A DNA stretch of 64,000 bases from Zootoca vivipara (taxonomy: Eukaryota), in NCBI RefSeq assembly GCF_963506605.1, contig NC_083290.1, positions 26,040,001 through 26,104,000 of the forward strand, given 5' to 3'. The position numbers were made by a program, and so were the translations under genes. The notes beneath the pieces are model-generated. The model had not been told where the DNA came from. It did not search any database and saw only the letters and a list, made by a program, of their open reading frames with translations. Positions 3,218 through 46,933 of the stretch are shown in pieces. Every line of letters begins with the position of its first letter. The first letter of the stretch is position 1.

Positions 3218-4363
3218 GCTGGATTATGGAGAAAGCTAGAGAGTTCCAGAAAAACGTCTACTTCTGCTTCATTGACTATGCAAAAGCCTTTGACTGTGTC
3301 GACCACAGCAAACTATGGCAAGTTCTTAAAGAAATGGGAGTGCCTGATCACCTCATCTGTCTCCTGAGAAATCTCTATGTGGGACAAGATGCTACAGTTA
3401 GAACTGGATATGGAACAACTGATTGGTTCAAAATTGGGAAAGGAGTATGACAAGGTTGTATATTGTCTCCCTGCTTATTTAACTTATATGCAGAATTCAT
3501 CATGCGAAAGGCTGGACTAGATGAATCCCAAGCCGGAATTAAGATTGCCGGAAGAAATATCAACAACCTCAGATATGCAGATGACACAACCTTGATGGCA
3601 GAAAGTGAGGAGGAATTAAAGAACCTTTTAATGAGGGTGAAAGAGGAGAGCGCAAAATATGGTCTGAAGCTCAACATCAAAAAACCCAAGATCATGGCCA
3701 CTGGTCCCATCACCTCCTGGCAAATAGAAGGGGAAGAAATGGAGGCAGTAAGAGATTTTACTTTCTTGGGCTCCTTGATCACTGCAGATGGTGACAGCAG
3801 TCACGAAATTAAAAGATGCCTGCTTCTTGGGAGAAAAGCAATGACAAACCTAGACAGCCTTTTAAAAAGCAGAGACATCACCTTGCCAACAAAGGTCCGT
3901 ATAGTTAAAGCTATGGTTTTCCCAGTAGTGATGTATGGAAGTGAGAGCTGGACCATAAAGAAGGCTAATCGCCGAAGAATTGATGCTTTTGAATTATGGT
4001 GCTGGAGGAGACTCTTGAGAGTCCCATGGACTGCAAGAAGATCAAACCTATCCATTCTGAAGGAAATCAGCCCTGAGTGCTCACTGGAAGGACAGATCCT
4101 GAAGCTGAGGCTCCAATACTTTGGCCACCTCATGAGAAGAGAAGACTCCCTGGAAAAGACCCTGATGTTGGGAAAGATGGAGGGCACTAGGAGAAGGGGA
4201 CAACAGAGGACGAGATGGTTGGACAGTGTTCTCAAAGCTACGAACATGAGTTTGACCAAACTGCAGGAGGCAGTAGAAGACAGGAGTGCCTGGCGTGCTA
4301 TGGTCCATGGGGTCACGAAGAGTCGGACACGACTAAACGACTAAACAACAACAACAACAACAA
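3218..4363 (+). mobile_element. RTE-BovB LINE, 5'-truncated (RT domain and 3' end)
   Basis: RT motifs FIDYAKAFD and LRYADDT, C-terminal HGVTKSRTRLND, (CAA)n tail; one in-frame TGA at 3448-3450 (probably CGA>TGA in GVRQG). Confidence 0.95.
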
Positions 4364-21947: not shown

Positions 21948-22285
21948 TGAAATATACTCGGAGTCGAGAGTGAATTTCATGCTCTTTATTCAGCTCATAG
22001 TCATCAAAACCATCTGCTTATATACATTACTCTTTTCCCAAAACCATCTGCTTATATACATTATTTACACAATGGGCCTTGCGTGATTGGCTACTTCAGG
22101 GCTACACCTGTGGGCCAATCAGGTTGCAGATTCACTTCTGCCAGCCGCCTGATTGGCTGCTCCTGCAGGCCAATCAGGTTGCGGATTCACTTTTCCACCT
22201 GGAGTTGGATTGGGTAGCTCCTGCGGACCAATCAGACTGCTGATTCTGAATCCTATTGTTCTAGGATTCAGCTTAGTACATAACA
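21948..22285 (-). mobile_element. Solo LTR of the same Gypsy family as 27068-32028
   Basis: Reverse complement of TGTTATGTACT...GAGTATATTTCA; 5-bp TSD CAGAG at 21943-21947 and 22286-22290. Confidence 0.95.
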
Positions 22286-23961
22286 CAGAGCAAAGGTGCG
22301 ATATAAATATAATAAAAATACTAGTCATGGGGGCTATATAGAACCTCTTCAGTATATCACTGAATGCCAGTTGCTTAGGTATCACCAATGAGGGATGCTT
22401 ATCGCCTTCAGGCCCTGCTTGTGGGCCTTGCAGAGGCATCTGATTGACCGCTGTGAGAAACACGTTGCCGGGCTTAGATGGTCCTATCCAACCAGGCTCT
22501 TGTGTTCTTAATACAGAAAAAAACTATGGCTTTGATGTGATGGATTCTCAATGCCATAATGCTAGAAATGAGCTGTGCTGGCATGGAAATTCTACAATAC
22601 AAATCAGGCAGAAGGGGATCAGTGTAGCTACCAGAACTGTCCCCCACGGCGTCTCCTTTTCCCTTGCAACTTGCTACCACTGGAAAGTCCCCCCACCTGG
22701 CACCCAATTCTCTTCCTCTGTTTTTAGATCCAGGTTCTTTGAAAACAGATCTGTTCGACTTACCACAATTTACCCTTCTCGGCTTTTATTCTCCCTCACC
22801 TACTTCCCCATTGTGTCTTGTCCTTTAGGTTGTAAGAGCCTGCGTTGTTGGTTTTTAACTTTTGCACAGCATCTAGCAATTTTAGGGTGTAATAATAATG
22901 TGAAAACACATATTGCATGGTACACTTGCGTCCTAATGAAAGAATATAATGAAAGAAATTCCATGCGTGGAATGATTAACAACTGCAGTAAGACAATAAC
23001 AATGCTAACTGTCAGCCTTAAAATACAGGGTGGCTAATCCAACAGTGCCTAAACCTCAAAGTCACACAGAGTTGGGAAGGACCTTGGAGGTCATCTGGTT
23101 CAACCCAGTGCTTGGTGCAGGATCTGCCACTCAGCTGTAGCTACAGGATCTCTTGACAGGTGGACGTCCAGCTTCTGCTTAAGTAGAGGGTGCCCACCAC
23201 CTCCCAAGGCTGTTTGTTCCACTTTTGATCACTTCTTACCCCTTAGGAAGTTTCTTCTAACATTCCCCATTACAATTTCTAGTCCTTCACAGACATCTCG
23301 CCCTTGTTGACTGCCATATTCATGGTGGGAGTGGGTGGGAGTGCATTCTCTGCAGCAGCCTCCCAGGCTCCAGAATTTTGCTCCCTTTTTTGACTCTGTG
23401 TTGCACAATTCCATCAGGAACTTTTCTTGTGTGAGTCCCATGGAAATGGATACTCTTACACAGCTTTGATTATGGCCTAGCCTACGCAGAAGAACTCCCT
23501 TTTGTCTCTCCGCCTCCCCCCCTGCAAGCAATCCTTAACTGATGTTTCTGTTTCCAGAGTTTATCGTTCAAATGAAGTCTACTTTTAGATCTAAATCTGG
23601 CTGTTTTCTGTGGGCTTTCCTGTGTGAATAACCTTCACAGATGACTCATTCCAGTTTCAAATGTATTCTTAGCGTCACTGGAGAAAACAACAGGTTTCGT
23701 GTCGGGGTGCGTTAAGGGGCAGATATCGGTTTTCTTCGCCTTCATTCTCGGCTAGTCTTTATGCTTCCTTTGTCAAGGATTTTTACGTCACCCGTTTTAA
23801 TGCTAAGGTCTCTTGATTTGTATTTTAAGCTCCTAGTAAAAATGCAGTTAAGTAAATTAACCGATGAAGGGCACGAACTGCAAAGGTGACAGGTGTCCCT
23901 CCACCTGGTTGAAGGACTGCATGGGAGCTGAGGGAAGTTTAGCAAGAGAAAATATTTTTAC

Positions 23962-24159
23962 CTCTGAGAGTCGGCTCTCAAGCCAGCTGGGGTTCCTTAG
24001 GATGGAGGGTCTCAAAAAGAAAGAGCTGAAAGCTGAGGAACTGGGGAGCAGTTCAGATTCCACAAGGTGCTCCCCAAAAGTCTGGTTGAAGATGCGGCTG
24101 GGCAACAAGCTTGACAGCAGGGGTCTGCGGAAGAAGGGGTGGTGAACGGTGATATCCAT
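23962..24159 (-). CDS. CRYAB: alphaB-crystallin exon 1
   Basis: [13 protein letters not shown]...[13 protein letters not shown]...[10 protein letters not shown]|gtaaaa; 198 nt; total 174 aa. Confidence 0.97.
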
Positions 24160-25971: not shown

Positions 25972-26623
25972 ATCATTTGACCTTATTGATCTGGAAGCCT
26001 TTGCTTGCTTGAATTCCATTTCTGTTCACGTGCTCAAGAGGTATATTGAATGAAGGTACAGTACTTTGTTATCCGTTTGGCCTCCTTGCCATGTTTGGAT
26101 CTGAACTTTTGAGTGTTTGTTTACTTCCTCATATCTTTCTCTTCAAGTCAAACACTTCCCATCCCCTTTCCCTCTGATTCAGCTGCTAAGAATAAGAGCT
26201 GACTAATGAAGCCTACTGGGCTAAATTTAAAACTGGGAGTGTTAAGTCTGAGTGCTCAGGCTCCTGAAAGAAGATGCAAGGCTGCAGCCAGCCATTACAC
26301 CACCTCCAGCTGAGCATGACATGAATGCTGCCTGACCTGTTTCCACTCTCTCTGTTCCTCTTTCTTCGCCCCCATCCCTCCAAGGGTGTGACCCGAGCTG
26401 TGCGTTGGTGGTACCCGTAGCTGGGAGTTGCCTTTTGCCAGATCTGTAGTTGTGATTGCACCTGAGGTGGGGCACCCCTCCGATAGAGCTGGCTAAGCTG
26501 AGCTCTGATTGCTAAATTTACGGAAGGACTGGACATGTGTTTCCATATACTGGCAATCATTCCCATGCCCTCCTTGAGAGCTTCTCAGAGGCATCTGGCT
26601 GGCAGCTATTGGGAATTGTCTTT

Positions 26624-27062
26624 ACCATGATGGCAGCTCATGTTTTGTTAGCCCAAAATTGGAAAATGAGCGAGGTCCCAGCCAAAGAAGAATGGCAACT
26701 TAAACTGATGGAATATGTGCCGCTTGTGGATCTAACTTATAGAATAAGAGAAGAACATTCATTTAAGGAAGATTGGAAAATGTTTATTGAATATATGGGG
26801 GGAAATTGTGTACACTTGAAAACATTGGCAGCATTAAGATAAATTCAACAGTGTAAATAAGTTTTGATGGAAGTAATAATGGAATACTGAATGGTTTAGT
26901 TTATATAAAATATGTAGGGATTTATGCTATGCAGAATGAACCATGGAAAAAGAAGAAGGGAAGTCATTTATATTTTAAGGTTGTTTAAATGAATATTCTT
27001 AATTGTGAAACAGAAAATTTAATAACACGCATGCATGCACACACACACACACACACACACAT
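26624..27062 (+). mobile_element. L1-like LINE 3' fragment ending in (CA)n
   Basis: AAHVLLAQNWK...EEWQLKLMEY...FKEDWKMFIEY resembles an L1 ORF2 C-terminus; AT-rich 3' UTR; TSD TGGGAATTGTCTTT at 26610-26623 and 32030-32043. Confidence 0.7.
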
Positions 27063-27067
27063 ATGGG

Positions 27068-27443
27068 TGTTATGTACTGAGCTGAATCCTAGAACAATAG
27101 GATTCAGATTCAGCGGGAGCTACCCAATCCAACTCCAGGTGGAAGTGAATCCGCAACCTGATTGGCCTGCTGGAGCAGCCAATCAGGCGGCTGGCAGAAG
27201 TGAATCTGCTACCTGATTGGCCTGTAGGAGCAGCCAATCAGGCTGCAGGTAAAAGTCAATCCACAATATAATTGGCCCACAGGTGTAGCCCTGAAGTAGC
27301 CAATCACGCAAGGCCCATTGTGTAAATAATGTATATAAGCAGATGGTTTTGGGAAAAGAGCCATTCGTCTTCTCTTCTCCTCCTTGATGACTATGAGCTG
27401 AATAAAGAGCATGAAATTCACTCTTGACTCCGAGTATATTTCA
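27068..27443 (+). repeat. 5' LTR (CCAAT array, TATATAA 27332-27338, AATAAA 27401-27406)
   Basis: Direct repeat of 31653-32028. Confidence 0.97.
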
Positions 27444-27444
27444 C

Positions 27445-27462
27445 TGGCGACGAAGGTGGGAT
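27445..27462 (+). other. Primer-binding site complementary to the tRNA-Ser(GCT) 3' end
   Basis: TGGCGACGAAGGTGGGAT is the reverse complement of ATCCCACCTTCGTCG-CCA, a vertebrate tRNA-Ser(GCT) 3' end as I recall it. Confidence 0.8.
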
Positions 27463-27571
27463 CCTGCTGAGCTGACCGCCACCACGCACTGCACCGCAGC
27501 ACCGCCACCTGCTGCACCGCTGCATCGCACCGTGCATCCAGGCTTCAGCTCCAGGACCCAAGGAACCCAGA

Positions 27572-30500
27572 ATGGCAACCGACAGCAGCTTCTCGCCATT
27601 CAAACCAGCATCAGGAGACTGGGAAGGGTACGCCGCCCGTTTCAACTTCCTCCTGCAAGCGAAAGAAGTCACCAACGATGCCACGAAGAGGGCGACATTC
27701 TTCAGCGTCTGTGGAGAGGAGACGTTTGAAATCGCCCGGGCTCTCCTTGCACCTAGAGATGTCGCTACCGTCTCTTACAAAACAATAATGGAACGGCTGA
27801 AGGAGCACTTCTCACCACAGCCCTCGGTGGTAGCTTGCCGAAATGCCTTCTACGCAAAGCGGCAAGCCCCGGGGGAAACCATAACTGGGTTTGTGACCTC
27901 CCTCCGCCAAGCCGCCCGGTTATGCAACTTCTCAGAATTGGAGAACATGCTTCGTGACCGCCTCGTCGGTGGCCTGAGGGACGAGATGTTGCAACGACGC
28001 CTCTACACCAAAAAAGACCTCACGTTCCAGATTGCTCTGGAGGAAGCCCTGGCAACCGAAGCCGCCGAGAGGTCAACGCAAGAGGCACGACCGGCCCCGC
28101 CATCCCAACCGAGGGTCTACCACGAAGACCTCACCGACGAATCCGAATCTGACAGGGAGGAAGTACACCGAGTACAGCGGCGCACTCAAGCAGCACACAC
28201 ACCACAGCAGCCTCGAAGAGAAGGAGGGAACTGTGCAAGCTGCGGGGAGAACCACGAGAGGAGGACCTGTCGTTTCCGCAACGCAGAGTGCAGGCAGTGC
28301 AGAAAATTGGGACACATCGCCCGGGTGTGTCGGGCTCGACTCACCCGTCGACAAGCATCAGATGACCGACCCAGGAGCCCCAGGTCACACGGCACCATGC
28401 ACCAAGGCAACTCGACGGAGATCACGGACTACCAGGTATTCCAGTTGCCCCATCCCAGCACAGAGAAAATTTATATAGAGGTACAGATAGAGGGAGCCCC
28501 ATGCCGCATGGAGCTGGACACGGGTTCAACTCTATCCATAATCTCGGCCCGAACATTAAGGGAACTGTGCCCTAATGGGGGTCCCAAACTAAGGCCGGCC
28601 CCATTCACCCTCCGGGACTTCCAGAAACGTAAGGTCCCTACTATGGGGGTGGGGACCTTCAGGGTGCAATATCGAGGGCGAAAGCAACAATTGGACTTGC
28701 TGGTAGTGAAGGGCCCCTACGTTAGCTTACTGGGACTGGCATGGTTTGGACCTCTGGGGCTAGCCGTTACCGGGGTGAACCGCACTAGCTTACAAGTGGA
28801 CGTGGACGCCATATGCAAAGAGTTTCCAGGGGTTTTCGATGGGGCATTGGGACGATATACAGGACCCCCCATTGCCCTACAGCTAGACCCCGCTGTACGA
28901 CCCATCAGGCACAAGGCCCGCCGGGTCCCGTTTGCCCTGAAACCCCGCATAGACGAGGAATTGGACCGGCTCGTGGAGCAAGGAGTGCTGGAGCCGGTGC
29001 CCAACGCCCCCTGGGAAACTCCAATTGTCACACCCGTCAAGCCTAACGGTTCGGTCCGCATCTGTGCAGACTACAAATGCACCATAAACAAGGCTCTCAC
29101 GGCCCATGCATACCCAGTGCCAGTGGTCAGCCATGTCCTCGCCACCCTGGCTGGGTCAAAAATCTTTGGCAAACTGGACTTGGCCCAAGCGTATCAACAG
29201 TTGCCTGTGGACGAAGCCACAGCAGAGGCTCAGACGATTGTGACGCACAGAGGGGCATTCAGAGTAAAGCGGCTGCAATTTGGCGTTAGCGTGGCACCAG
29301 GCATATTCCAGAATCTAATGGACTCTCTCCTTAAAGGGATTCCTGGTGTCACCCCCTTCTTCGATGATGTACTGATCGCCGGGCCCACACCAGAGGAATT
29401 TGAGGACCGCCTCCGCTCCGTCCTGCACCGTTTCCAGACGGCGGGCCTCAAGGTGAAGCGGGAAAAGTGTTTACTGGGAGTGCCGCAGGTGGACTTTCTG
29501 GGATTTAAGGTGGACGCAGAAGGGGTCCATCCAACCGGTGACAAGGTACGGGCCATTTGTGAGGCCCCAGCGCCCAAGAGCAAGCCCGAACTTCAGTCAT
29601 TCTTGGGACTATTGAACTTTTACCATGCCTTCCTTCCCCATAAGGCAGCGGTAGCGGAGCCCCTACACAGACTCCTAGATAAAAGGGCCCCTTGGGTGTG
29701 GGGCCAGCGACAAAGGGCCGCATTCCAGGCAGTCAAGGACTTGCTCGTCTCGAACTCGGTCTTGGCACACTTCGACGAGAGGCTGCCAGTGGTGCTGGCA
29801 TGCGACGCCTCTCCCTATGGCATCGGCGCTGTCCTGGGACACCAACTCCCGGATGGAAGAGAGGTGCCGGTGGCATACTTCTCCCAGACGCTTGCTGCAG
29901 CCGAACGAAACTACTCACAGATTGACAAGGAGGGTCTGGCAATCGTGAAGGGCGTAAAAAAATTCCATGATTTCTTGTACGGGCGGCCCTTTACCATAGT
30001 GACTGACCACAAGCCGTTGCTTGGCCTGTTTGCCCCTGAGAAGCAGACCCCCCAAGTGTTGTCTCCACGTGTCCTCAGGTGGTCAATTTTCCTTGCCGGC
30101 TACCAGTATGCACTAATCCACCGCCCTGGGAAGGCGATGGGCCACGCAGACGCCCTCAGCAGGCTACCACTACCAGAAACAGGCCCCGACCCAGCGCCTG
30201 CGCAAGAGGTTATGACCCTGGAGCTGCTTCCCGACCGACCCATTCAGGCACAAGAAGTTGCGCACCATTCCACAAAAGATAGGGTCATCTCCCGGGTCCT
30301 GGACTGGGTGTGGCGAGGATGGCCCAGCAGCAGCCCCGGGCCAGAATTCGCTGGCTACACAAACCGCAAACATGAACTGTCGGCCCACAAGGGGTGCCTG
30401 TTATGGGGAAGCAGGGTTGTTGTTCCCCAGCCCCTCCGCAAAAGGGTCCTCACAGCCCTACACGAGACACACCCAGGGGTAGTGAGGATGAAGGCCCTTG

Positions 30501-31642
30501 CCAGGAGTTATGTGTGGTGGCCGGGGATTGACAGAGAGATAGAGGCCTGGGTCCAACACTGCCAGACCTGCCAAGAATCCCGCCCGGATCCCCCAAGGGC
30601 CCCAGTCCAGCCCTGGGAGTCCGCCCGACATCCATGGTCACGCTTGCACGTGGACTTCGCTGGCCCCTTCCAGGGAAAAACATTCTTCATAGTGGTGGAT
30701 TCCTACACCAAATGGCTGGAGGTCGCACTGGTACCATCCACTTCTACGGCGGCAGCCATCCGGGTACTACGTAAGCTGTTTGCGACCCACGGGCTCCCTG
30801 ACACCCTCGTCTCGGACAATGGAACCGCATTCACGTCAGAGGAGTTCCAGACCTTCACAGCGCAGAACGCCATCCGCCACATCCGCTCAGCACCATTCCA
30901 CCCTGCCACCAATGGCCAAGCGGAGCGCATGGTGCGGACCACCAAGGACAGCCTCCGCCGCATGACACAAGGGGACTGGGAATACCGCCTTGCCGCATTT
31001 CTTCTAGCACAGCACAGCACCCCAAGCACAACGACGGGCCGGAGCCCAGCTGAATTACTAATGGGCCGGCGCCTTGCAACTAGACTGGACCGACTTCACC
31101 CCGACAGAGCTCAGGATGAGGTAGTGGTGGGGAAAGGCAGGAACCCCCGGACATTTGTGGCCCAGGACCCAGTGTATGCAAAGAATTTTGGGGCAGGCCC
31201 AGCATGGGTACCCGCCACAGTCACCAAGGTGACCGGTCCCGTGTCGTACGAGGTACTAACGGAAGGGGGGCAATGTTGGCGCCGCCACTGCGACCAGATA
31301 CGGCGACGATTCCCAGGAGGAACCCGGGAGGAGAGCGGGACAGAGGGGTCCCAAGGGGACAGCAGGGCAGTGAGGCCTGTAGAGCGAGAGGGGTGGGCAG
31401 AGGAAGCAGAAGCAGTAGGCACAGAGGGGCGCCCCGAGGCTGGAAGGACACCGGAACCAGAGCTACAACCTAGTGGTTCAGTGGCGCCAGACCAGACAGC
31501 CCCGGCACAGCCAGCAGCCTCGGAACACGAGCCAGAACCAGAACCCCTGACCAAGGAACACCCCAGGCCACAACGCACACGGAGGCGGCCAGCAGACCTT
31601 GGGGACTACGAATGCAACTTCCCGGGCAGGACTGGAACTTAG
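27572..31642 (+). CDS. Gag-Pol polyprotein (Gag, 2 zinc knuckles, protease, RT, RNase H, integrase), 1356 aa
   Basis: CASCGENHERRTC and CRQCRKLGHIARVC; LDTGS; LDLAQAYQQ...FFDD; DASPYG...TDHKPL; HETH...CQTC; VDFAG...SDNG...AERMV. Domain order PR-RT-RH-IN is Ty3/Gypsy. Confidence 0.97.
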   Translation: MATDSSFSPFKPASGDWEGYAARFNFLLQAKEVTNDATKRATFFSVCGEETFEIARALLAPRDVATVSYKTIMERLKEHFSPQPSVVACRNAFYAKRQAPGETITGFVTSLRQAARLCNFSELENMLRDRLVGGLRDEMLQRRLYTKKDLTFQIALEEALATEAAERSTQEARPAPPSQPRVYHEDLTDESESDREEVHRVQRRTQAAHTPQQPRREGGNCASCGENHERRTCRFRNAECRQCRKLGHIARVCRARLTRRQASDDRPRSPRSHGTMHQGNSTEITDYQVFQLPHPSTEKIYIEVQIEGAPCRMELDTGSTLSIISARTLRELCPNGGPKLRPAPFTLRDFQKRKVPTMGVGTFRVQYRGRKQQLDLLVVKGPYVSLLGLAWFGPLGLAVTGVNRTSLQVDVDAICKEFPGVFDGALGRYTGPPIALQLDPAVRPIRHKARRVPFALKPRIDEELDRLVEQGVLEPVPNAPWETPIVTPVKPNGSVRICADYKCTINKALTAHAYPVPVVSHVLATLAGSKIFGKLDLAQAYQQLPVDEATAEAQTIVTHRGAFRVKRLQFGVSVAPGIFQNLMDSLLKGIPGVTPFFDDVLIAGPTPEEFEDRLRSVLHRFQTAGLKVKREKCLLGVPQVDFLGFKVDAEGVHPTGDKVRAICEAPAPKSKPELQSFLGLLNFYHAFLPHKAAVAEPLHRLLDKRAPWVWGQRQRAAFQAVKDLLVSNSVLAHFDERLPVVLACDASPYGIGAVLGHQLPDGREVPVAYFSQTLAAAERNYSQIDKEGLAIVKGVKKFHDFLYGRPFTIVTDHKPLLGLFAPEKQTPQVLSPRVLRWSIFLAGYQYALIHRPGKAMGHADALSRLPLPETGPDPAPAQEVMTLELLPDRPIQAQEVAHHSTKDRVISRVLDWVWRGWPSSSPGPEFAGYTNRKHELSAHKGCLLWGSRVVVPQPLRKRVLTALHETHPGVVRMKALARSYVWWPGIDREIEAWVQHCQTCQESRPDPPRAPVQPWESARHPWSRLHVDFAGPFQGKTFFIVVDSYTKWLEVALVPSTSTAAAIRVLRKLFATHGLPDTLVSDNGTAFTSEEFQTFTAQNAIRHIRSAPFHPATNGQAERMVRTTKDSLRRMTQGDWEYRLAAFLLAQHSTPSTTTGRSPAELLMGRRLATRLDRLHPDRAQDEVVVGKGRNPRTFVAQDPVYAKNFGAGPAWVPATVTKVTGPVSYEVLTEGGQCWRRHCDQIRRRFPGGTREESGTEGSQGDSRAVRPVEREGWAEEAEAVGTEGRPEAGRTPEPELQPSGSVAPDQTAPAQPAASEHEPEPEPLTKEHPRPQRTRRRPADLGDYECNFPGRTGT

Positions 31643-31652
31643 AGGGGAGGGG

Positions 31653-32028
31653 TGTTATGTACTGAGCTGAATCCTAGAACAATAGGATTCAGATTCAGCG
31701 GGAGCTACCCAATCCAACTCCAGGTGGAAGTGAATCCGCAACCTGATTGGCCTGCTGGAGCAGCCAATCAGGCGGCTGGCAGAAGTGAATCTGCTACCTG
31801 ATTGGCCTGTAGGAGCAGCCAATCAGGCTGCAGGTAAAAGTCAATCCACAATATAATTGGCCCACAGGTGTAGCCCTGAAGTAGCCAATCACGCAAGGCC
31901 CATTGTGTAAATAATGTATATAAGCAGATGGTTTTGGGAAAAGAGCCATTCGTCTTCTCTTCTCCTCCTTGATGACTATGAGCTGAATAAAGAGCATGAA
32001 ATTCACTCTTGACTCCGAGTATATTTCA
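31653..32028 (+). repeat. 3' LTR
   Basis: Direct repeat of 27068-27443, preceded by the PPT and followed by the TSD. Confidence 0.97.
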
Positions 32029-34076
32029 ATGGGAATTGTCTTTCTCTAAACTAGAGTGAACTTTTAGAGGTGAACTTTCCTCAAAACAAGAAGCAGTCAG
32101 TTTAACTGCAGCCAAAACTAAGGTGGGAGCTAGTTTAAAATAAAACACTAGGGATGGATGAATCAGTCAATTTCTGTTTCTATTTCTCAAACTTCAATCC
32201 AGTTCACTAAATTTCCACATTAGTTTGAGGGTTGTTTTTTTTAAGTCCTTGCAAAAAATCACCAGCATTTTAGTGTGCATTTCCCTTAATCCATTTTGAC
32301 AAGCAATTTCACCTCATACAATGCACTTTTGTATCATATTTGCACTGATATTTGCATTTCTAGGAATCATTTTCCACTGGAGAGCAGCACGGCATTTGCA
32401 GGAAAGCGAATTTCACAGGAGAGAGAAATTGATGAGAGAGGCTGGTATGCTTTTATACTTTCCATTTAAAAGGGCACGGGTTCTCCCTTGAGCCATCTTG
32501 TGACAGCCAGGACCAGATGCTACTGAAGTAGGATGGAGCTGTAAGGTGGGGGGTTGGTGGGTGGGGGCAACATTTTGCCTGGCTGTAGCCAGCTACGCTG
32601 AGATGGCTTCCTTCTCCAGTTTCGTCCCATGTAAATAACGAGGGAGACAAGATGTCTGTGCACCTGCTGCCCCAAAGGGTCTTCAATAAGTCTCTGGTTT
32701 CACATCACATCACAAATGAATAAGGGATGGTGACTGCGATGGTGATGCTTCTTGCACTCTGTCAATCATTTCTACTGAGGAAATATTGCAGTCCTCTGCC
32801 TGCTTTCCTGAGGGTAAGAACTGAAGGGCTGGGCCTAATGGAGGGCATTTGGTTGTGGGGAAAATCATTAACACCTTTGTGTCTTGTCTTTCCTCCTTGG
32901 CAGGACATTTTACAAGGGACGGCACAGTTTGTTACTCACAGTACCCCAGGGAGGTAGATTAGCATTTGAGAGACTGGCCCAAGGTCACACTGTATGTTTC
33001 ACAAAGCTAAGTGTGATAGGGATCTGCCCGCACTGGGAATCTTAGTGGATGCTGGACCGATTCAGACAGGTTGAGGCAGATTGAAGTAGCTGCCTCAGGG
33101 GGCCAATGCTGGGGTGGGGGCAGAAAGGGGCAGCCTCTCCAGATGTTCCTCTCGGGGCCTCTGGCTGTACGCTTCTGTTGGGGACACACATCTTGGAGTG
33201 CCACACATCTTGTCCTGCCCCTTCCAAGCCTCATAACTAGCCTGCTTCCTTCATGTACAGACAGTTCAGAACTCTATCCTGTTGCCAGTGACAAAGTAAG
33301 ATTCAGCTCTCGGTCCAGTTGGTTTATCTACAGTGCAGTGCAGGGGTTAGGGTTAGTGGTTAGGGTGCTGGACTGGGGTTCAAATCCCCACTCAGCCATT
33401 AAGGTCACTGGATGGGCGACCTTGGGCTAGTCATCACCTCTCGGCCTGAACTACCCCGCAGGGTTGTTGTGAGGACTTGGTGAGCTGGTAAGCGCTTTTA
33501 CCTGAAGTGGTCTGTAAAAGATACTCAGGTACGCTCCCCATAGTTCATAGTTGTGGAGCAGCCACACAGAATGCCTCTAGTCTAGTCATCCTGGGAGTTG
33601 ACATGAGCTGATGAGACTTGTAGTCCAAAACTGCTGGAGGGCACCAGGTTGGGGAAGGCTGGTGGGTGGACTCCGTGAGGGAGTCATGGAGAACACAGTG
33701 GGACTGGAGGAGAGGACACTGCCTGTGGCTACAGTCAGCGCTTCATTCCATACATGTGGCTTCCCATCCAGTTGTCCCACAACATGGCTGGCTTGGGAGA
33801 ATCACAAATTTCTGACATTTCTAACAGCTGCAACTACGTTGTCAGAGGGCTGCACAGTGAAAAGATGCCTCTCGGGTGGAATGCAGCAAGGAGCTCTTTG
33901 GTCATCGTTGGGGGCTTGGCGTTCCAGGGCCTGCCTATCTATTTTGGTCCATATTTTATCACTTGCTCCCCCACCCCATGGAATTTGCCCCAGGAAAACG
34001 TCGCAGTCGGACTGCAGCCTTCGCGAGGAGACACAGAAACAGGTAGTGAAAGACGTCCATTCCCCCAGCAAAGACC

Positions 34077-34170
34077 ATGGCTGAGCGCACTGTCCCTCAC
34101 GCCTACCCCATGAGTGCGGAGTACGAGTTTGCCAACCCCAGCAAGATTTATGACCAGAACTTTGGAGAAG
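34077..34170 (+). CDS. HSPB2: HSPB2 exon 1
   Basis: ACCATGG; MAERTVPHAYPMSAEYEFANPSKIYDQNFGE G|gtaaga; head-to-head with CRYAB. Confidence 0.95.
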
Positions 34171-35984
34171 GTAAGAAAAATGACTGGCTGGTAGCGTTTC
34201 CCTTTTATTTGCACACAGTAGATTGCAAGCAATCCAAGGCTGAGCTGGTGGTTCTAACTCAGTGATTGAGGGAATCCTATGGAATAGTGATTATGAAACA
34301 AAGAATAACACACACATATTTTGCAATTGTAGAAATGTTCTCGTGAGCTTGCATGGAAAGAGTGTTTGAAGCCCCCCCCTTTTTAACCACACTTTTGCCT
34401 CCCTGAACGTGTGAACAAAGGCACAGTGTGTGGCAGTGACTACCTTCTTCATGGATCTGATGAGACTGAAGGTGCTTCCAAGTGAGTGTGTATTGTAGGA
34501 TTGCTGTCCTTCATGCATGTGAGATTTGTTGCAGCATCCACACAGCATCGTTGCATGAAAATGCCACCCCATTTTTCCTGCTGTTTAATCCAAATTTCCC
34601 CTTTCTTAGGAAAAACCTGTTTGTGATATCTCAGTGACCCATTTATAATATTAAAAACTCCATCTGGAAACAACCTCTCTATTGGAAACCTTGTAGTTTT
34701 TTTTTAGATTATTCCTACAATCAGAACTGTGTCTCAGTGTGTTACCCCAAGTGCTGATACAGTAATTTGATTCTGTGCTTGTTTACCCTGAAATAAGCTT
34801 TTCTGGGTTCAGTGGGGCAATGGATTGCAGTCTGAGATTATAGAAGACATAAATCAATCCTCTAAAAAGTGACTTCATTCAGTTCTTAATGTATAATGCA
34901 GTCAGATTGCAACTAAAGGCATTGATATGCATTTACTGTGCTAAATAGAATTATAGAGGCATAGCTATAGACTTTCTTTCTTGTGTGTGTATCCCTTGGG
35001 ATGATGAAACTATATATCCATATCCCCTGGGATGGGGAAACATATCTTGAAACACATCTCCAAATCCTTAATATTTTTTAGTCCATTGATATTGTGGTCA
35101 TTAAAATCAATATGTGCGCCCAACAGTCAACAACAGACTCGACCAACATAAAGGGATGCATGGGTTTGTTATACTGTAAGGCAAGGTTTTGGGTTTTTTT
35201 AAAAAAAAAGAAAAAACAAGCCAATATGGTACAACCACACACAACGCAAAAGAGAGAGACAGCATCCCAGGTGTAAGGGAGGAACAACCCATGAAGATGA
35301 GACCATATGGGCCAATTGGCTTTACTTCTGTTTTGCGAGAAGTTAAAAAGACTTCCAGCTGGCGAGGGAGCCCTCTCAAAGCTGCTGGCAGCCGGGAACG
35401 AGATCCTTCTCTTTCTGCATACGGATCCAGGGCACTTTATGGAATGTGGCTGGCACAGAGCAGCATGGAGGGGAACGATGCCAGCCAGAGACTATTTTTA
35501 TTTTTTTGCAAACTCCGTTAAAATTTGTGAAAAGCTGAGCTGGTGGGTTGTGCACAAAGCCTGGCTGGAGTAGCAGTGGCTGTTAGAGGAGAAAGAATGC
35601 AGAAGGCAGCAGTAAACCATTCAGCGCTGAACAGAGAGAAAAGCTGCAAGCCCCCAGAGAGAAGCCGGTGGGATGACTGTGTTGCATAAAAGGTCTTTTG
35701 TTGTCCGTTCCAGTCTGCAGCCGGCTGCCATGTGCTTCTCTTGCTTCTGGGCCTGGCAAAATGGCTGGGCAGGAGGACCAGGCCTAGGGCAATGGTAGGT
35801 GATGCCTTTGGTTGGGGTGGGGAAGAGCAGGCAAAGCATGAGAGGAAAGCTCCAGGGTAAGGAGAATGAGAATGCATAGAAACTGGGAAATAAATGAAAG
35901 CCCCAAAAGAAATATACAGTATCGGGAATTCCAAAATGCTGAGTTTGCCAAGTTTCCTTAGCATGGCAGCTTACTGAACATGCC

Positions 35985-41343: not shown

Positions 41344-42198
41344 CCTCTCCTGTCAGTAGCAGTGGAGGAGAAATTTGACTTTGTTTACATTTCAGTGAGA
41401 AGCTACCTAATTCCACACCTCTCGAACCAATGTGTGAACCAAAACACAACCATCTTTCCATACCTGCAGTTCTCTGTATTTTGCAATGCAGCTATCCAAC
41501 CAAACAGTGCATAAAGATGAATATAATGGGGGAGGGGGTGGGATGCACATTAGAAATGTATATATTAGTCACAAAATAGCATGCAAAACATGCATATTGC
41601 TAAACGAGAAACTACAAAAATATGTTTAGTGGGAGAAAATTGCACTAAAATGCTGATGGATTTCCATGAGGATTTTAAAAACAAATCGCAAATTGCTGCA
41701 GAAATGTGGAGAGCTGGATTTAAGATTGGAATAATAACATTCTGGTTTGTCCATCCCTACATTTCAGGCCCCAAATAAGTGGGTCTTGGTTTTGGCCCAT
41801 CTACTGCAGGGAATTACAGGCCCAGATTTTTGCCAGCAAAGCATAATCCACCCCCACCCCACAGCCCCGCATTACATTGTTAAGCCTGGGCGCTGAGACC
41901 CAGACTCCCTTTTGTGCCCGCAGACACGTTATGAAAAGGGAATGTGGACTGGCAGCCAAGGATTGGCTGGCAGGGGTGGTGTTTTTGATGCTTCTCTATT
42001 TCCCCAGAGGAGCTAAAAAAAAAAACCCTGAGCAAACTGAGCACATGTCCAGAGAGGGGCTTAAAGGAGCAGGCGTGCAAACCCAGAGTTTGTGTTATTT
42101 TTGGGTCTCAGCAGGGCTAAGAAAACTCAATAGACGTTCTGGTAATCAAAACAGATTCAGGGACTGTGCTCATATTAGCAAAGGCCTAGTGCTTCTGG

Positions 42199-43008
42199 AG
42201 ATTGCCGGAAGAAATATCAACAACCTCAGATATGCAGATGACACAACCTTGATGGCAGAAAGCGAGGAGGAATTAAAGAACCTTTTAATGAGGGTGAAAG
42301 AGGAGAGCGCAAAATATGGTCTGAAGCTCAACATCAAAAAAACCAAGATCATGGCCACTGGTCCCATCACCTCCTGGCAAATAGAAGGGGAAGAAATGGA
42401 GGCAGTGAGTGATTTTACTTTCTTGGGCTCCTTGATCACTGCAGATGGTGACAGCAGTCACGAAATTAAAAGACGCCTGCTTCTTGGGAGAAAAGCAATG
42501 ACAAACCTAGACAGCATCTTAAAAAGCAGAGACATCACTTTGCCGACAAAGGTCCATATAGTTAAAGCTATGGTTTTCCCAGTAGTGATGTATGGAAGTG
42601 AGAGCTGGACCATAAAGAAGGCTGATCGTCGAAGAATTGATGCTTTTGAATTATGGTGCTGGAGGAGACTCTTGAGAGTCCCATGGACTGCTAGAAGATC
42701 AAACCTATCCATTCTTAAGGAAATCAGCCCTGAGTGCTCCCTGGAAGGACAGATCGTGAAGCTGAGGCTCCAATACTTTGGCCACCTCATGAGAAGAGAA
42801 GAATCCTTGGAAAAGACCCTGATGTTGGGAAAGATGGAGGGCACTAGGAGAAGGGGACGACAGAGGACAAGATGGTTGGACAGTGTTCTCGAAGCTACGA
42901 ACATGAGTTTGACCAAACTGCGGGAGGCAGTGCAAGACAGGAGTGCCTGGCGTGCTATGGTCCATGGGGTCACGAAGAGTCGGACACGACTAAACGACTA
43001 AACAACAA
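42199..43008 (+). mobile_element. RTE-BovB LINE, 5'-truncated, frame intact, 11-bp TSD AGTGCTTCTGG
   Basis: Near-identical to 3542-4350; TSD at 42188-42198 and 43009-43019. Confidence 0.95.
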
Positions 43009-46448: not shown

Positions 46449-46451
<3 letters not shown>

Positions 46452-46933
46452 GAGACATCACCTTGCTGACAAAGGTCCGTATAGTTAAAGCTATGGTTTT
46501 CCCAGTAGTGATGTATGGAAGTGAGAGTTGGACCATAAAGAAGGCTGATCACTGAAGGATTGGTGCTTTTGAACTATGGTGCTGGAGCAGACTCTTGAGA
46601 GTCCCATGGACTGCAAGAAGATCAGACCTATCCATTCTGAAGGAAATCAGCCCTGAGTGCTCACTGGAAGGACAGATCCTGAAGCTGAGGGTCCAATACT
46701 TTGGCCACATCATGAGAAGAGAAGACTCCCTGGAAAAGACCCTGATATTGGGAAAGATTGAGGGCACAAGGAGAAGGGGACGACAGAGGACGAGATGGTT
46801 GGACAGTGTTCTCTAAGCTACGAACATGAGTTTGACCAAACTGCGGGAGGCAGTGGAAGGCAGGAGTGCCTGGCATGCTCTGGTTCAGGGGGTCATGAAG
46901 AGTCGGACACGACTAAACGACTAAACAACAATA
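46449..46933 (+). mobile_element. RTE-BovB LINE 3' fragment with stops
   Basis: Homologous to 3869-4350; (CAA) tail; TSD AGTGGAGAGAGA. Confidence 0.92.

What the first reader, a model, noticed from the sequence alone, without database searches (positions are those of the whole stretch)
27068..32028. Apparently intact, very young Gypsy/Mag-like retrotransposon in an amniote genome
Seen: two 376-bp LTRs with no difference I can find, a perfect 5-bp TSD, an 18-nt PBS, a PPT overlapping the stop codon, and one uninterrupted 1356-aa ORF with all catalytic motifs. The ORF is CpG-rich with little sign of decay. There is no env or chromodomain. Established: Ty3/Gypsy elements are inactive or domesticated in mammals and birds but persist in squamates. 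Inference: a potentially mobile, probably polymorphic copy of a family that may not be catalogued.
Basis: partly seen in the sequence, partly recalled or inferred. Interest (0 to 1): 0.7.

Follow-up and report, generated by a model that had tools for sequence, protein, structure and literature searches.

The report
Young Gypsy retrotransposon burst in lizard
This is an intact jumping gene, one of about 700 nearly identical copies in a lizard genome, present on some chromosomes and missing from others at this spot between two stress-protein genes; the family is likely still mobile, and an effect on those two genes is untested.

Summary
Observation confirmed. Two identical 376-bp LTRs, TSD ATGGG, an 18-nt tRNA-Ser(GCU) primer site and one open 1356-aa gag-pol frame are all there. 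It is an env-less Ty3/Gypsy element with Mag-lineage features, in a lacertid lizard.

It is not a lone copy. The genome holds 697 exact LTR-PBS junctions. Of 80 copies taken in positional order, 69 have two LTRs, 38 have identical LTRs and 42 keep an open frame of at least 1350 aa. One public run holds both the filled and the empty junction, so this insertion is polymorphic.

It lies between the head-to-head CRYAB and HSPB2 genes and doubles their spacing; any effect is untested. The family switches between two tRNA-Ser isodecoders. In 9 of 12 imperfect target duplications the left copy carries G/GG next to the LTR, likely an unclipped 5' overhang.

Expression and present-day mobility were not measured. 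Mag membership rests on features, not on a tree with named references. No paper and no earlier scan note described this family. Verdict: new member of a known kind.

The parts
27063..27067 (+). left target-site duplication ATGGG
27068..27443 (+). 5' LTR, 376 bp, TG...CA; three ~55-bp U3 sub-repeats with CCAAT boxes, TATATAA at 27332, AATAAA at 27401
   Evidence: promoter and poly(A) use are inferred
27445..27462 (+). primer-binding site, 18-nt complement of tRNA-Ser(GCU) 3' end, one base after the LTR
27572..31642 (+). single gag-pol ORF, 1356 aa
27740..27982 (+). Gag capsid-like region (Retrotrans_gag E 3e-4, below Pfam's cut-off)
28232..28330 (+). two nucleocapsid knuckles, CX2CX3HX4C and CX2CX4HX4C
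28475..28744 (+). aspartic protease (LDTGS; Pfam hit below cut-off)
29069..29512 (+). reverse transcriptase core (FFDD)
29699..30103 (+). RNase H
30422..30925 (+). integrase: H2C2 zinc domain and D,D-E core
31641..31652 (+). polypurine tract, ending GGGG, overlapping the stop codon
31653..32028 (+). 3' LTR, identical to the 5' LTR
32029..32033 (+). right target-site duplication ATGGG
26610..27062 (+). older dispersed repeat (likely the 3' end of a LINE) with a (CA)n tail; a 14-bp duplication at 26610-26623 recurs at 32030-32043, so the Gypsy copy landed at the tail/duplication junction
   Evidence: LINE identity is inferred
23958..24159 (-). CRYAB exon 1 coding part (ATG at 24159; exon end approximate), 2909 bp from the element
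   Evidence: gene name inferred from Pfam and synteny
34078..34171 (+). HSPB2 exon 1 coding part (ATG at 34078), 2050 bp from the element
   Evidence: gene name inferred from Pfam, recalled motif and synteny
21948..22285 (-). solo LTR of the same family (338 bp, variant structure, TSD CAGAG) in CRYAB intron 1

Best explanation
This is an intact, polymorphic copy of an env-less Ty3/Gypsy retrotransposon, likely of the Mag lineage, from a family that recently spread to about 700 near-identical copies in a lacertid lizard genome and is likely still mobile. Shown: the anatomy, copy number, near-identity of the copies, different 5-bp TSDs, and filled and empty alleles at this site. Inferred from sequence signatures: (1) reverse transcription is primed by tRNA-Ser(GCU), with either of two isodecoders; (2) plus-strand synthesis starts at the PPT and leaves extra G bases on the U3 end; (3) integrase cuts with a 5-bp stagger at a weakly symmetric site with A/T at -3 and +3; (4) host repair usually removes the 5' overhang but keeps G or GG in about 8% of insertions; (5) copies are then methylated and decay at CpG. 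Assumed from known Ty3/Gypsy biology and untested here: LTR-driven transcription, polyprotein cleavage and intracellular particle assembly. The position between CRYAB and HSPB2 is most likely a chance, nearly neutral insertion.
For: Anatomy. Best PDB match is the Ty3 Gag-Pol, E 2.6e-88. All 40 scored places are 100% identical over 701 bp of RT (925 candidates). Exact counts: 697 LTR-PBS junctions, 745 RT 33-mers, 2275 LTR ends, with 0 for each reversed control. Position-ordered sample of 80: 69 two-LTR, 38 with identical LTRs, 42 open at 1350 aa or more, pooled LTR divergence 0.0017. 105 of 117 insertion sites have perfect 5-bp TSDs. Run X1 holds a filled-junction contig (depth 25) and an empty-junction contig (depth 30). 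PBS states in the 80 copies are 52/27/1; the two common states match two tRNA-Ser(GCT) gene types in the genome and occur on both LTR haplotypes. Variants shared between copies are N 21: S 28, singletons N+stop 109: S 69 (Fisher p 0.023; neutral 1.9-3.0), so variants that spread were filtered for protein function.
Against: No transcript, protein or de novo insertion was observed. The X1 contigs reach only 19 letters into the LTR and 30 into the empty flank, below the tool's 31-letter bridging mark. The window site has C at -3, where 96 of 97 other sites have A/T. The samples needed an exact junction or RT match and so favour young copies. The overhang signature was spotted after the fact; the fresh set gave only 1 of 2 imperfect TSDs with it. 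No named Mag reference was in any tree.
Confidence: 0.88

Rival explanations
1. The burst is recent but over: the family is now silenced by methylation and piRNA, and polymorphic copies are left over from the last few hundred thousand years.
For: Singleton changes are 9.6-fold enriched at CpG. 31 of 69 LTR pairs already differ. Mean age is 0.3-0.9 My at an assumed 1-3e-9 per site per year (the rate is my assumption).
Against: 38 of 69 pairs are identical. Some copies differ by only 2 bases in 4.6 kb (minimum p 0.00044). 42 of 80 frames are open.
Confidence: 0.3
2. The insertion is a cis-regulatory allele: it doubles the CRYAB-HSPB2 spacing and points an LTR promoter at HSPB2, changing expression of one or both genes.
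For: ATG-to-ATG distance is 9919 bp with the element and 4953 bp without; the element is co-oriented with HSPB2 and 2 kb from it. In mammals the ~1 kb intergenic region holds an orientation-dependent enhancer (PMC3073930, passages).
Against: The lizard spacer is already about 5 kb with other repeats in it. With about 700 copies plus solo LTRs, some fall near genes by chance. No expression data were examined.
Confidence: 0.15
3. The LTR identity is an assembly artefact (repeat collapse) or gene conversion, and the copy is old and fixed.
For: Collapse and conversion both give identical LTRs (general knowledge). The runs that match the window exactly (X2, X4) may be its source.
Against: The copy has 4 private differences, one carried by both LTRs. 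Its nearest copy differs at 7 sites. Other copies keep 1-6 LTR differences and their own TSDs. An empty allele exists.
Confidence: 0.03
4. A domesticated Gypsy-derived host gene.
For: The frame is intact, and RefSeq annotates family members as protein-coding genes.
Against: Hundreds of dispersed copies with LTRs and TSDs, presence/absence polymorphism, and stops and frameshifts in many copies.
Confidence: 0.01

Closest known systems
Mag lineage of Ty3/Gypsy (Bombyx Mag, mosquito Mag families, fish Jule)
   Same: About 5 kb, one ORF, no env, two NC knuckles, tRNA-Ser PBS, 5-bp TSD. PMC2577118 (passages) gives usually two CCHC arrays for Mag. PMC3286476 (passages and Table 1) gives Ser/Leu PBS, 1-2 ORFs in most families and mostly 5-bp TSDs. 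PMC6238403 (passages) says Mag occurs in vertebrates.
   Different: The first knuckle has CX3H spacing. The LTR (376 bp) is longer than the mosquito ones (119-304 bp). Copy number is about 700 against 1-31. The host is an amniote. Jule was seen only as a title in reference lists.
Squamate 'K02A2.6-like' RefSeq proteins
   Same: Cluster P0001 (133 members; the 15 listed are labelled Zootoca vivipara or Podarcis raffonei) is 98-100% identical by domain. RT is 97% identical to a P. raffonei and 96% to a Lacerta agilis protein.
   Different: These are annotated as uncharacterised genes, not as a transposon family. Other squamate families are 58-79% identical over RT-RH-IN.
Saccharomyces Ty3 (PDB 7q5b, 4ol8)
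   Same: Best solved-structure match over RT-RH-IN; same domain order.
   Different: Recalled, not tested: Ty3 uses a gag-pol frameshift, tRNA-iMet and one knuckle, and targets Pol III genes. Here there is one frame, tRNA-Ser, two knuckles and dispersed targets.
Retroviral integration (HIV-1)
   Same: 3' processing next to CA, symmetric target preference and a 5-bp duplication (PMC2615046, passages).
   Different: That review describes the 5' overhang as removed during repair. Here 9 of 117 sites appear to keep 1-2 of its bases. No env.

Membership tests
Ty3/Gypsy LTR retrotransposon | Paired TG...CA LTRs with a short TSD | tested here: met
   105 of 117 family sites have perfect 5-bp TSDs
Ty3/Gypsy LTR retrotransposon | Pol order PR-RT-RH-IN with catalytic motifs | tested here: met
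   Ty3 is the best PDB hit
Ty3/Gypsy LTR retrotransposon | tRNA primer-binding site and polypurine tract | tested here: met
   18 of 18 match to own-genome tRNA-Ser(GCT) plus CCA; PPT
Ty3/Gypsy LTR retrotransposon | Transcription and present-day transposition | not tested
   no RNA run was laid; mobility is inferred from copy number, identity and polymorphism
Mag lineage | Two CCHC arrays in nucleocapsid | tested here: met
   two arrays, the first with CX3H spacing; criterion from PMC2577118, shared with Micropia/Mdg3
Mag lineage | tRNA-Ser or -Leu PBS, 5-bp TSD, 1-2 ORFs, no env | tested here: met
   criteria from mosquito Mag families, PMC3286476
Mag lineage | RT phylogeny groups with named Mag/A/B/C-clade references | not testable with these tools
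   trees hold no labelled reference element
Chromovirus | Chromodomain after integrase | tested here: not met
   no Pfam chromo hit in the last 180 aa at E up to 1
Errantivirus / endogenous retrovirus | env ORF | tested here: not met
   the ORF stop abuts the PPT and 3' LTR; no room and no Pfam hit
Domesticated Ty3/Gypsy gene | Single-copy, fixed, LTR-less | tested here: not met

The most novel reading that the evidence does not exclude
A Mag-type Gypsy family is transposing now in an amniote germline, with several hundred open-frame copies. This segregating insertion is a cis-regulatory allele of the CRYAB-HSPB2 stress-gene pair. The family's junctions record a repair outcome, retention of the U3 5' overhang, that my searches did not find described.
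Probability: 0.12. Interest if true: 0.72.

Novelty: new member of a known kind. Interest (0 to 1): 0.42.

Why it matters
Recently active transposons in squamates are known (PMC5381603 section 13 read; PMC10379679 passages), so the kind is not new. The scale is useful: about 700 near-identical copies, about half with an open frame by extrapolation from 42 of 80, and polymorphic sites. That gives population markers and a natural record of how an amniote germline handles a Ty3/Gypsy element, including primer choice, target preference, junction repair and CpG decay. This copy is also a ready heterozygous test of whether CRYAB and HSPB2 need to stay close. The family inflates gene annotation: the protein cluster has 133 members, and those listed are annotated as host genes.

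Tried and rejected
Expression: no RNA holder listed. Four runs only guessed to be RNA held 0.61-0.62 of the words; neither they nor raw RNA run X24 were laid, because both lay calls went to the junction. No claim on expression is made.

(2-kb stretch) was swamped by other LTR copies and gave no genotype. X5, X9, X11 and X14 did not cover the junction, which says nothing. Summed contig depths were not used as copy numbers.

The first tree run timed out and was redone with FastTree (117 of 120 hits plus the window; P0015, P0022 and P0093 left out for short coverage) and IQ-TREE (30 hand-picked hits plus the window). No AU test was run.

Recent horizontal arrival of this family was considered and not adopted: relatives with 96-97% RT identity exist in Podarcis and Lacerta.

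L038 (misplaced ends) was dropped from the 45-copy analysis. L052 (30 private changes) was kept and inflates the singleton counts. 11 of 80 position-ordered copies had no second LTR in the fetched stretch.

Paper searches for the family, tick-squamate Gypsy transfer and overhang retention listed nothing on these points. The library lacks most subscription papers, and I opened no supplements, where repeat libraries would sit. Repbase, Dfam and GyDB were not available. Earlier scan notes: 8 listed by place, none on this family; 0 by sequence or words.

Full report
Observation. All stated features are present. The LTRs at 27068-27443 and 31653-32028 are 376 bp, identical and TG...CA, flanked by ATGGG on both sides. 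One 1356-aa ORF runs 27572-31642. It carries a weak Gag match, two Cys/His knuckles, protease, RT, RNase H and integrase in Ty3/Gypsy order, with catalytic motifs. The best solved-structure match is yeast Ty3 Gag-Pol, E 2.6e-88. The stop codon overlaps the polypurine tract, leaving no room for env, and the acidic, Pro-rich tail has no chromodomain hit. CpG observed/expected is 0.65 in the ORF against 0.28-0.30 in the flanks.

Host and family. The closest protein cluster (133 members) is 98-100% identical by domain. NCBI labels the 15 listed members 'K02A2.6-like' or uncharacterised proteins of Zootoca vivipara or Podarcis raffonei. RT relatives at 96-97% identity occur in Podarcis and Lacerta, which fits vertical descent in lacertids. 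In trees the element sits in a squamate-dominated clade (99; 100/100). No named reference element was available, so 'Mag' rests on features: two CCHC arrays (PMC2577118, passages), and a Ser PBS, 5-bp TSD and single ORF (PMC3286476, passages and Table 1).

The burst. All 40 scored places are 100% identical over 701 bp of RT, out of 925 candidates. Whole-genome exact counts are 697 LTR-PBS junctions, 745 RT 33-mers and 2275 LTR ends, with 0 for each reversed control. I took 80 junctions in positional order (78 on contig C1, 2 on C2; the second 40 skipped five already fetched). Of these, 69 have two LTRs, 38 pairs are identical and 42 keep an open frame of at least 1350 aa. Pooled LTR divergence is 45 substitutions in 25,884 sites, or 0.0017. 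At an assumed 1-3e-9 substitutions per site per year (my assumption) that is 0.3-0.9 My on average, biased young by the exact-match filter. The window's own 0 of 376 only bounds its age below about 2-4 My. Among 45 copies chosen for similarity, mean pairwise distance is 0.0039 and the tree is star-like. The window copy belongs to a small sub-lineage of 7 and has 4 private differences, one present in both LTRs. Shared variants are mostly synonymous (N 21, S 28) while singletons are not (N+stop 109, S 69; p 0.023), and singletons are 9.6-fold enriched for CpG transitions. I read this as selection on the copies that spread, followed by methylation-driven decay.

Polymorphism. On 32004-32110, run X1 gives a 74-bp contig that runs from the LTR end into the right flank (depth 25.1). 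It also gives an 85-bp contig in which the same flank is preceded by the (CA)n tail that lies left of the element in the window (depth 30). That is one sample with both alleles. Limits: the contigs reach 19 and 30 letters past the junction, under the tool's 31-letter mark. X2 and X4 show only the filled form with no differences and may be the window's source. X5, X9, X11 and X14 do not cover the site.

Mechanism. Priming: the PBS matches 18 of 18 bases of three tRNA-Ser(GCT) genes. Across the 80 copies it has two common states (52 and 27) and one hybrid. The second state matches another tRNA-Ser(GCT) gene type in the genome. Both states occur on both LTR haplotypes (14/4 and 11/5) and are scattered over the copy tree, as expected if the PBS is recopied from the primer in each round (inference). 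Targeting: A/T stands at -3 in 63 of 64 and 33 of 33 sites, and at +3 in 60 of 64 and 33 of 33. G/C is favoured at the outer TSD positions (48 and 45 of 64). The window site is an exception at -3.

Junction repair. Of 83 sites, 73 TSDs are perfect, 8 differ only at positions 4-5 of the left copy, always with G there, and 2 differ otherwise. The +3 A/T rule holds in 8 of 8 only for a 5-bp stagger (6 of 8 for 4 bp, 3 of 8 for 3 bp). The PPT ends in GGGG, so the simplest reading is a 5' G/GG overhang on the U3 end that was kept rather than clipped. A fresh set of 34 gave 32 perfect, 1 with the signature and 1 other: consistent, but at a lower rate. A review of HIV integration describes the overhang as removed (PMC2615046, passages). 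Two searches found no account of retention, which is weak evidence of novelty.

Neighbourhood. Pfam and frame reading give FDXACB1, CFAP68, CRYAB (minus strand, ATG 24159) and HSPB2 (plus strand, ATG 34078), then a DUF4578 gene (names inferred from domains and recalled synteny). The element sits 2909 bp from the CRYAB ATG and 2050 bp from the HSPB2 ATG, and raises their distance from 4953 to 9919 bp. In mammals the pair shares about 1 kb with an orientation-dependent enhancer (PMC3073930 and PMC3411653, passages). The element landed at the tail of an older dispersed repeat (87-90% to the 39 other scored places), splitting that repeat from its 14-bp duplication. A solo LTR of the same family lies in CRYAB intron 1. 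No expression data were examined, and chance placement is the default.

Comparison and verdict. It works like a standard tRNA-primed Ty3/Gypsy element and meets the sequence features of that group and the listed features of Mag. Recently active elements in squamates are established (PMC5381603, section 13 and passages; PMC10379679, passages). Five searches listed no paper on this family, and repeat databases and supplements were not seen. New member of a known kind. Interest 0.42, for the scale of the burst, the shown polymorphism beside a conserved gene pair, and the junction signature.

Noticed in passing
proteins P0023, P0025, P0102: Hard-tick elements (Rhipicephalus microplus, 41-member cluster; a cluster that includes Ixodes scapularis) fall inside the squamate clade (100/100) and group with a different Zootoca family (94/97, not starred). 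Possible old reptile-tick transfer; direction unknown, no AU test.
   Followed up: partly
window 21948-22285 (-): Solo LTR of the same family in CRYAB intron 1, in the gene's sense orientation, with TSD CAGAG and an AATAAA. It has fewer U3 repeats and a 20-bp internal duplication. It could cause early polyadenylation; untested.
   Followed up: partly
L023, L029, L050, L055, L071, L082, L085, L091, L146: Imperfect TSDs with G/GG in the left copy next to the LTR, likely a retained 5' overhang.
   Followed up: yes
L012/L108 and L102; L101, L149, L083, L141: Two different insertions have the same 4060-bp length, suggesting an internally deleted variant that was mobilised. LTR length variants (431, 397, 321, 318 bp) suggest gain or loss of U3 repeat units.
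   Followed up: no
L052: A copy with identical LTRs and an open frame but 30 private differences; possibly a recombinant with an older subfamily.
   Followed up: no
window 3502-4344, 41931-43001, 46449-46748: Three 95-98% similar fragments of a non-LTR reverse-transcriptase element (RVT_1 hit; likely RTE/BovB, recalled), also young.
   Followed up: no
window 32123, 32141, 32810: Run X1 carries another flank haplotype (one substitution, a 1-bp insertion and an 18-bp deletion), useful for phasing the empty allele.
   Followed up: no
L014 (G000:C1:102208353-102213288): Two family LTRs in opposite orientation around internal sequence: a rearranged copy.
   Followed up: no
proteins P0031, P0034, P0085, P0024, P0027: Several other lacertid families of the same clade have multi-member clusters (up to 121), so young Gypsy expansions look common in lacertids.
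   Followed up: no
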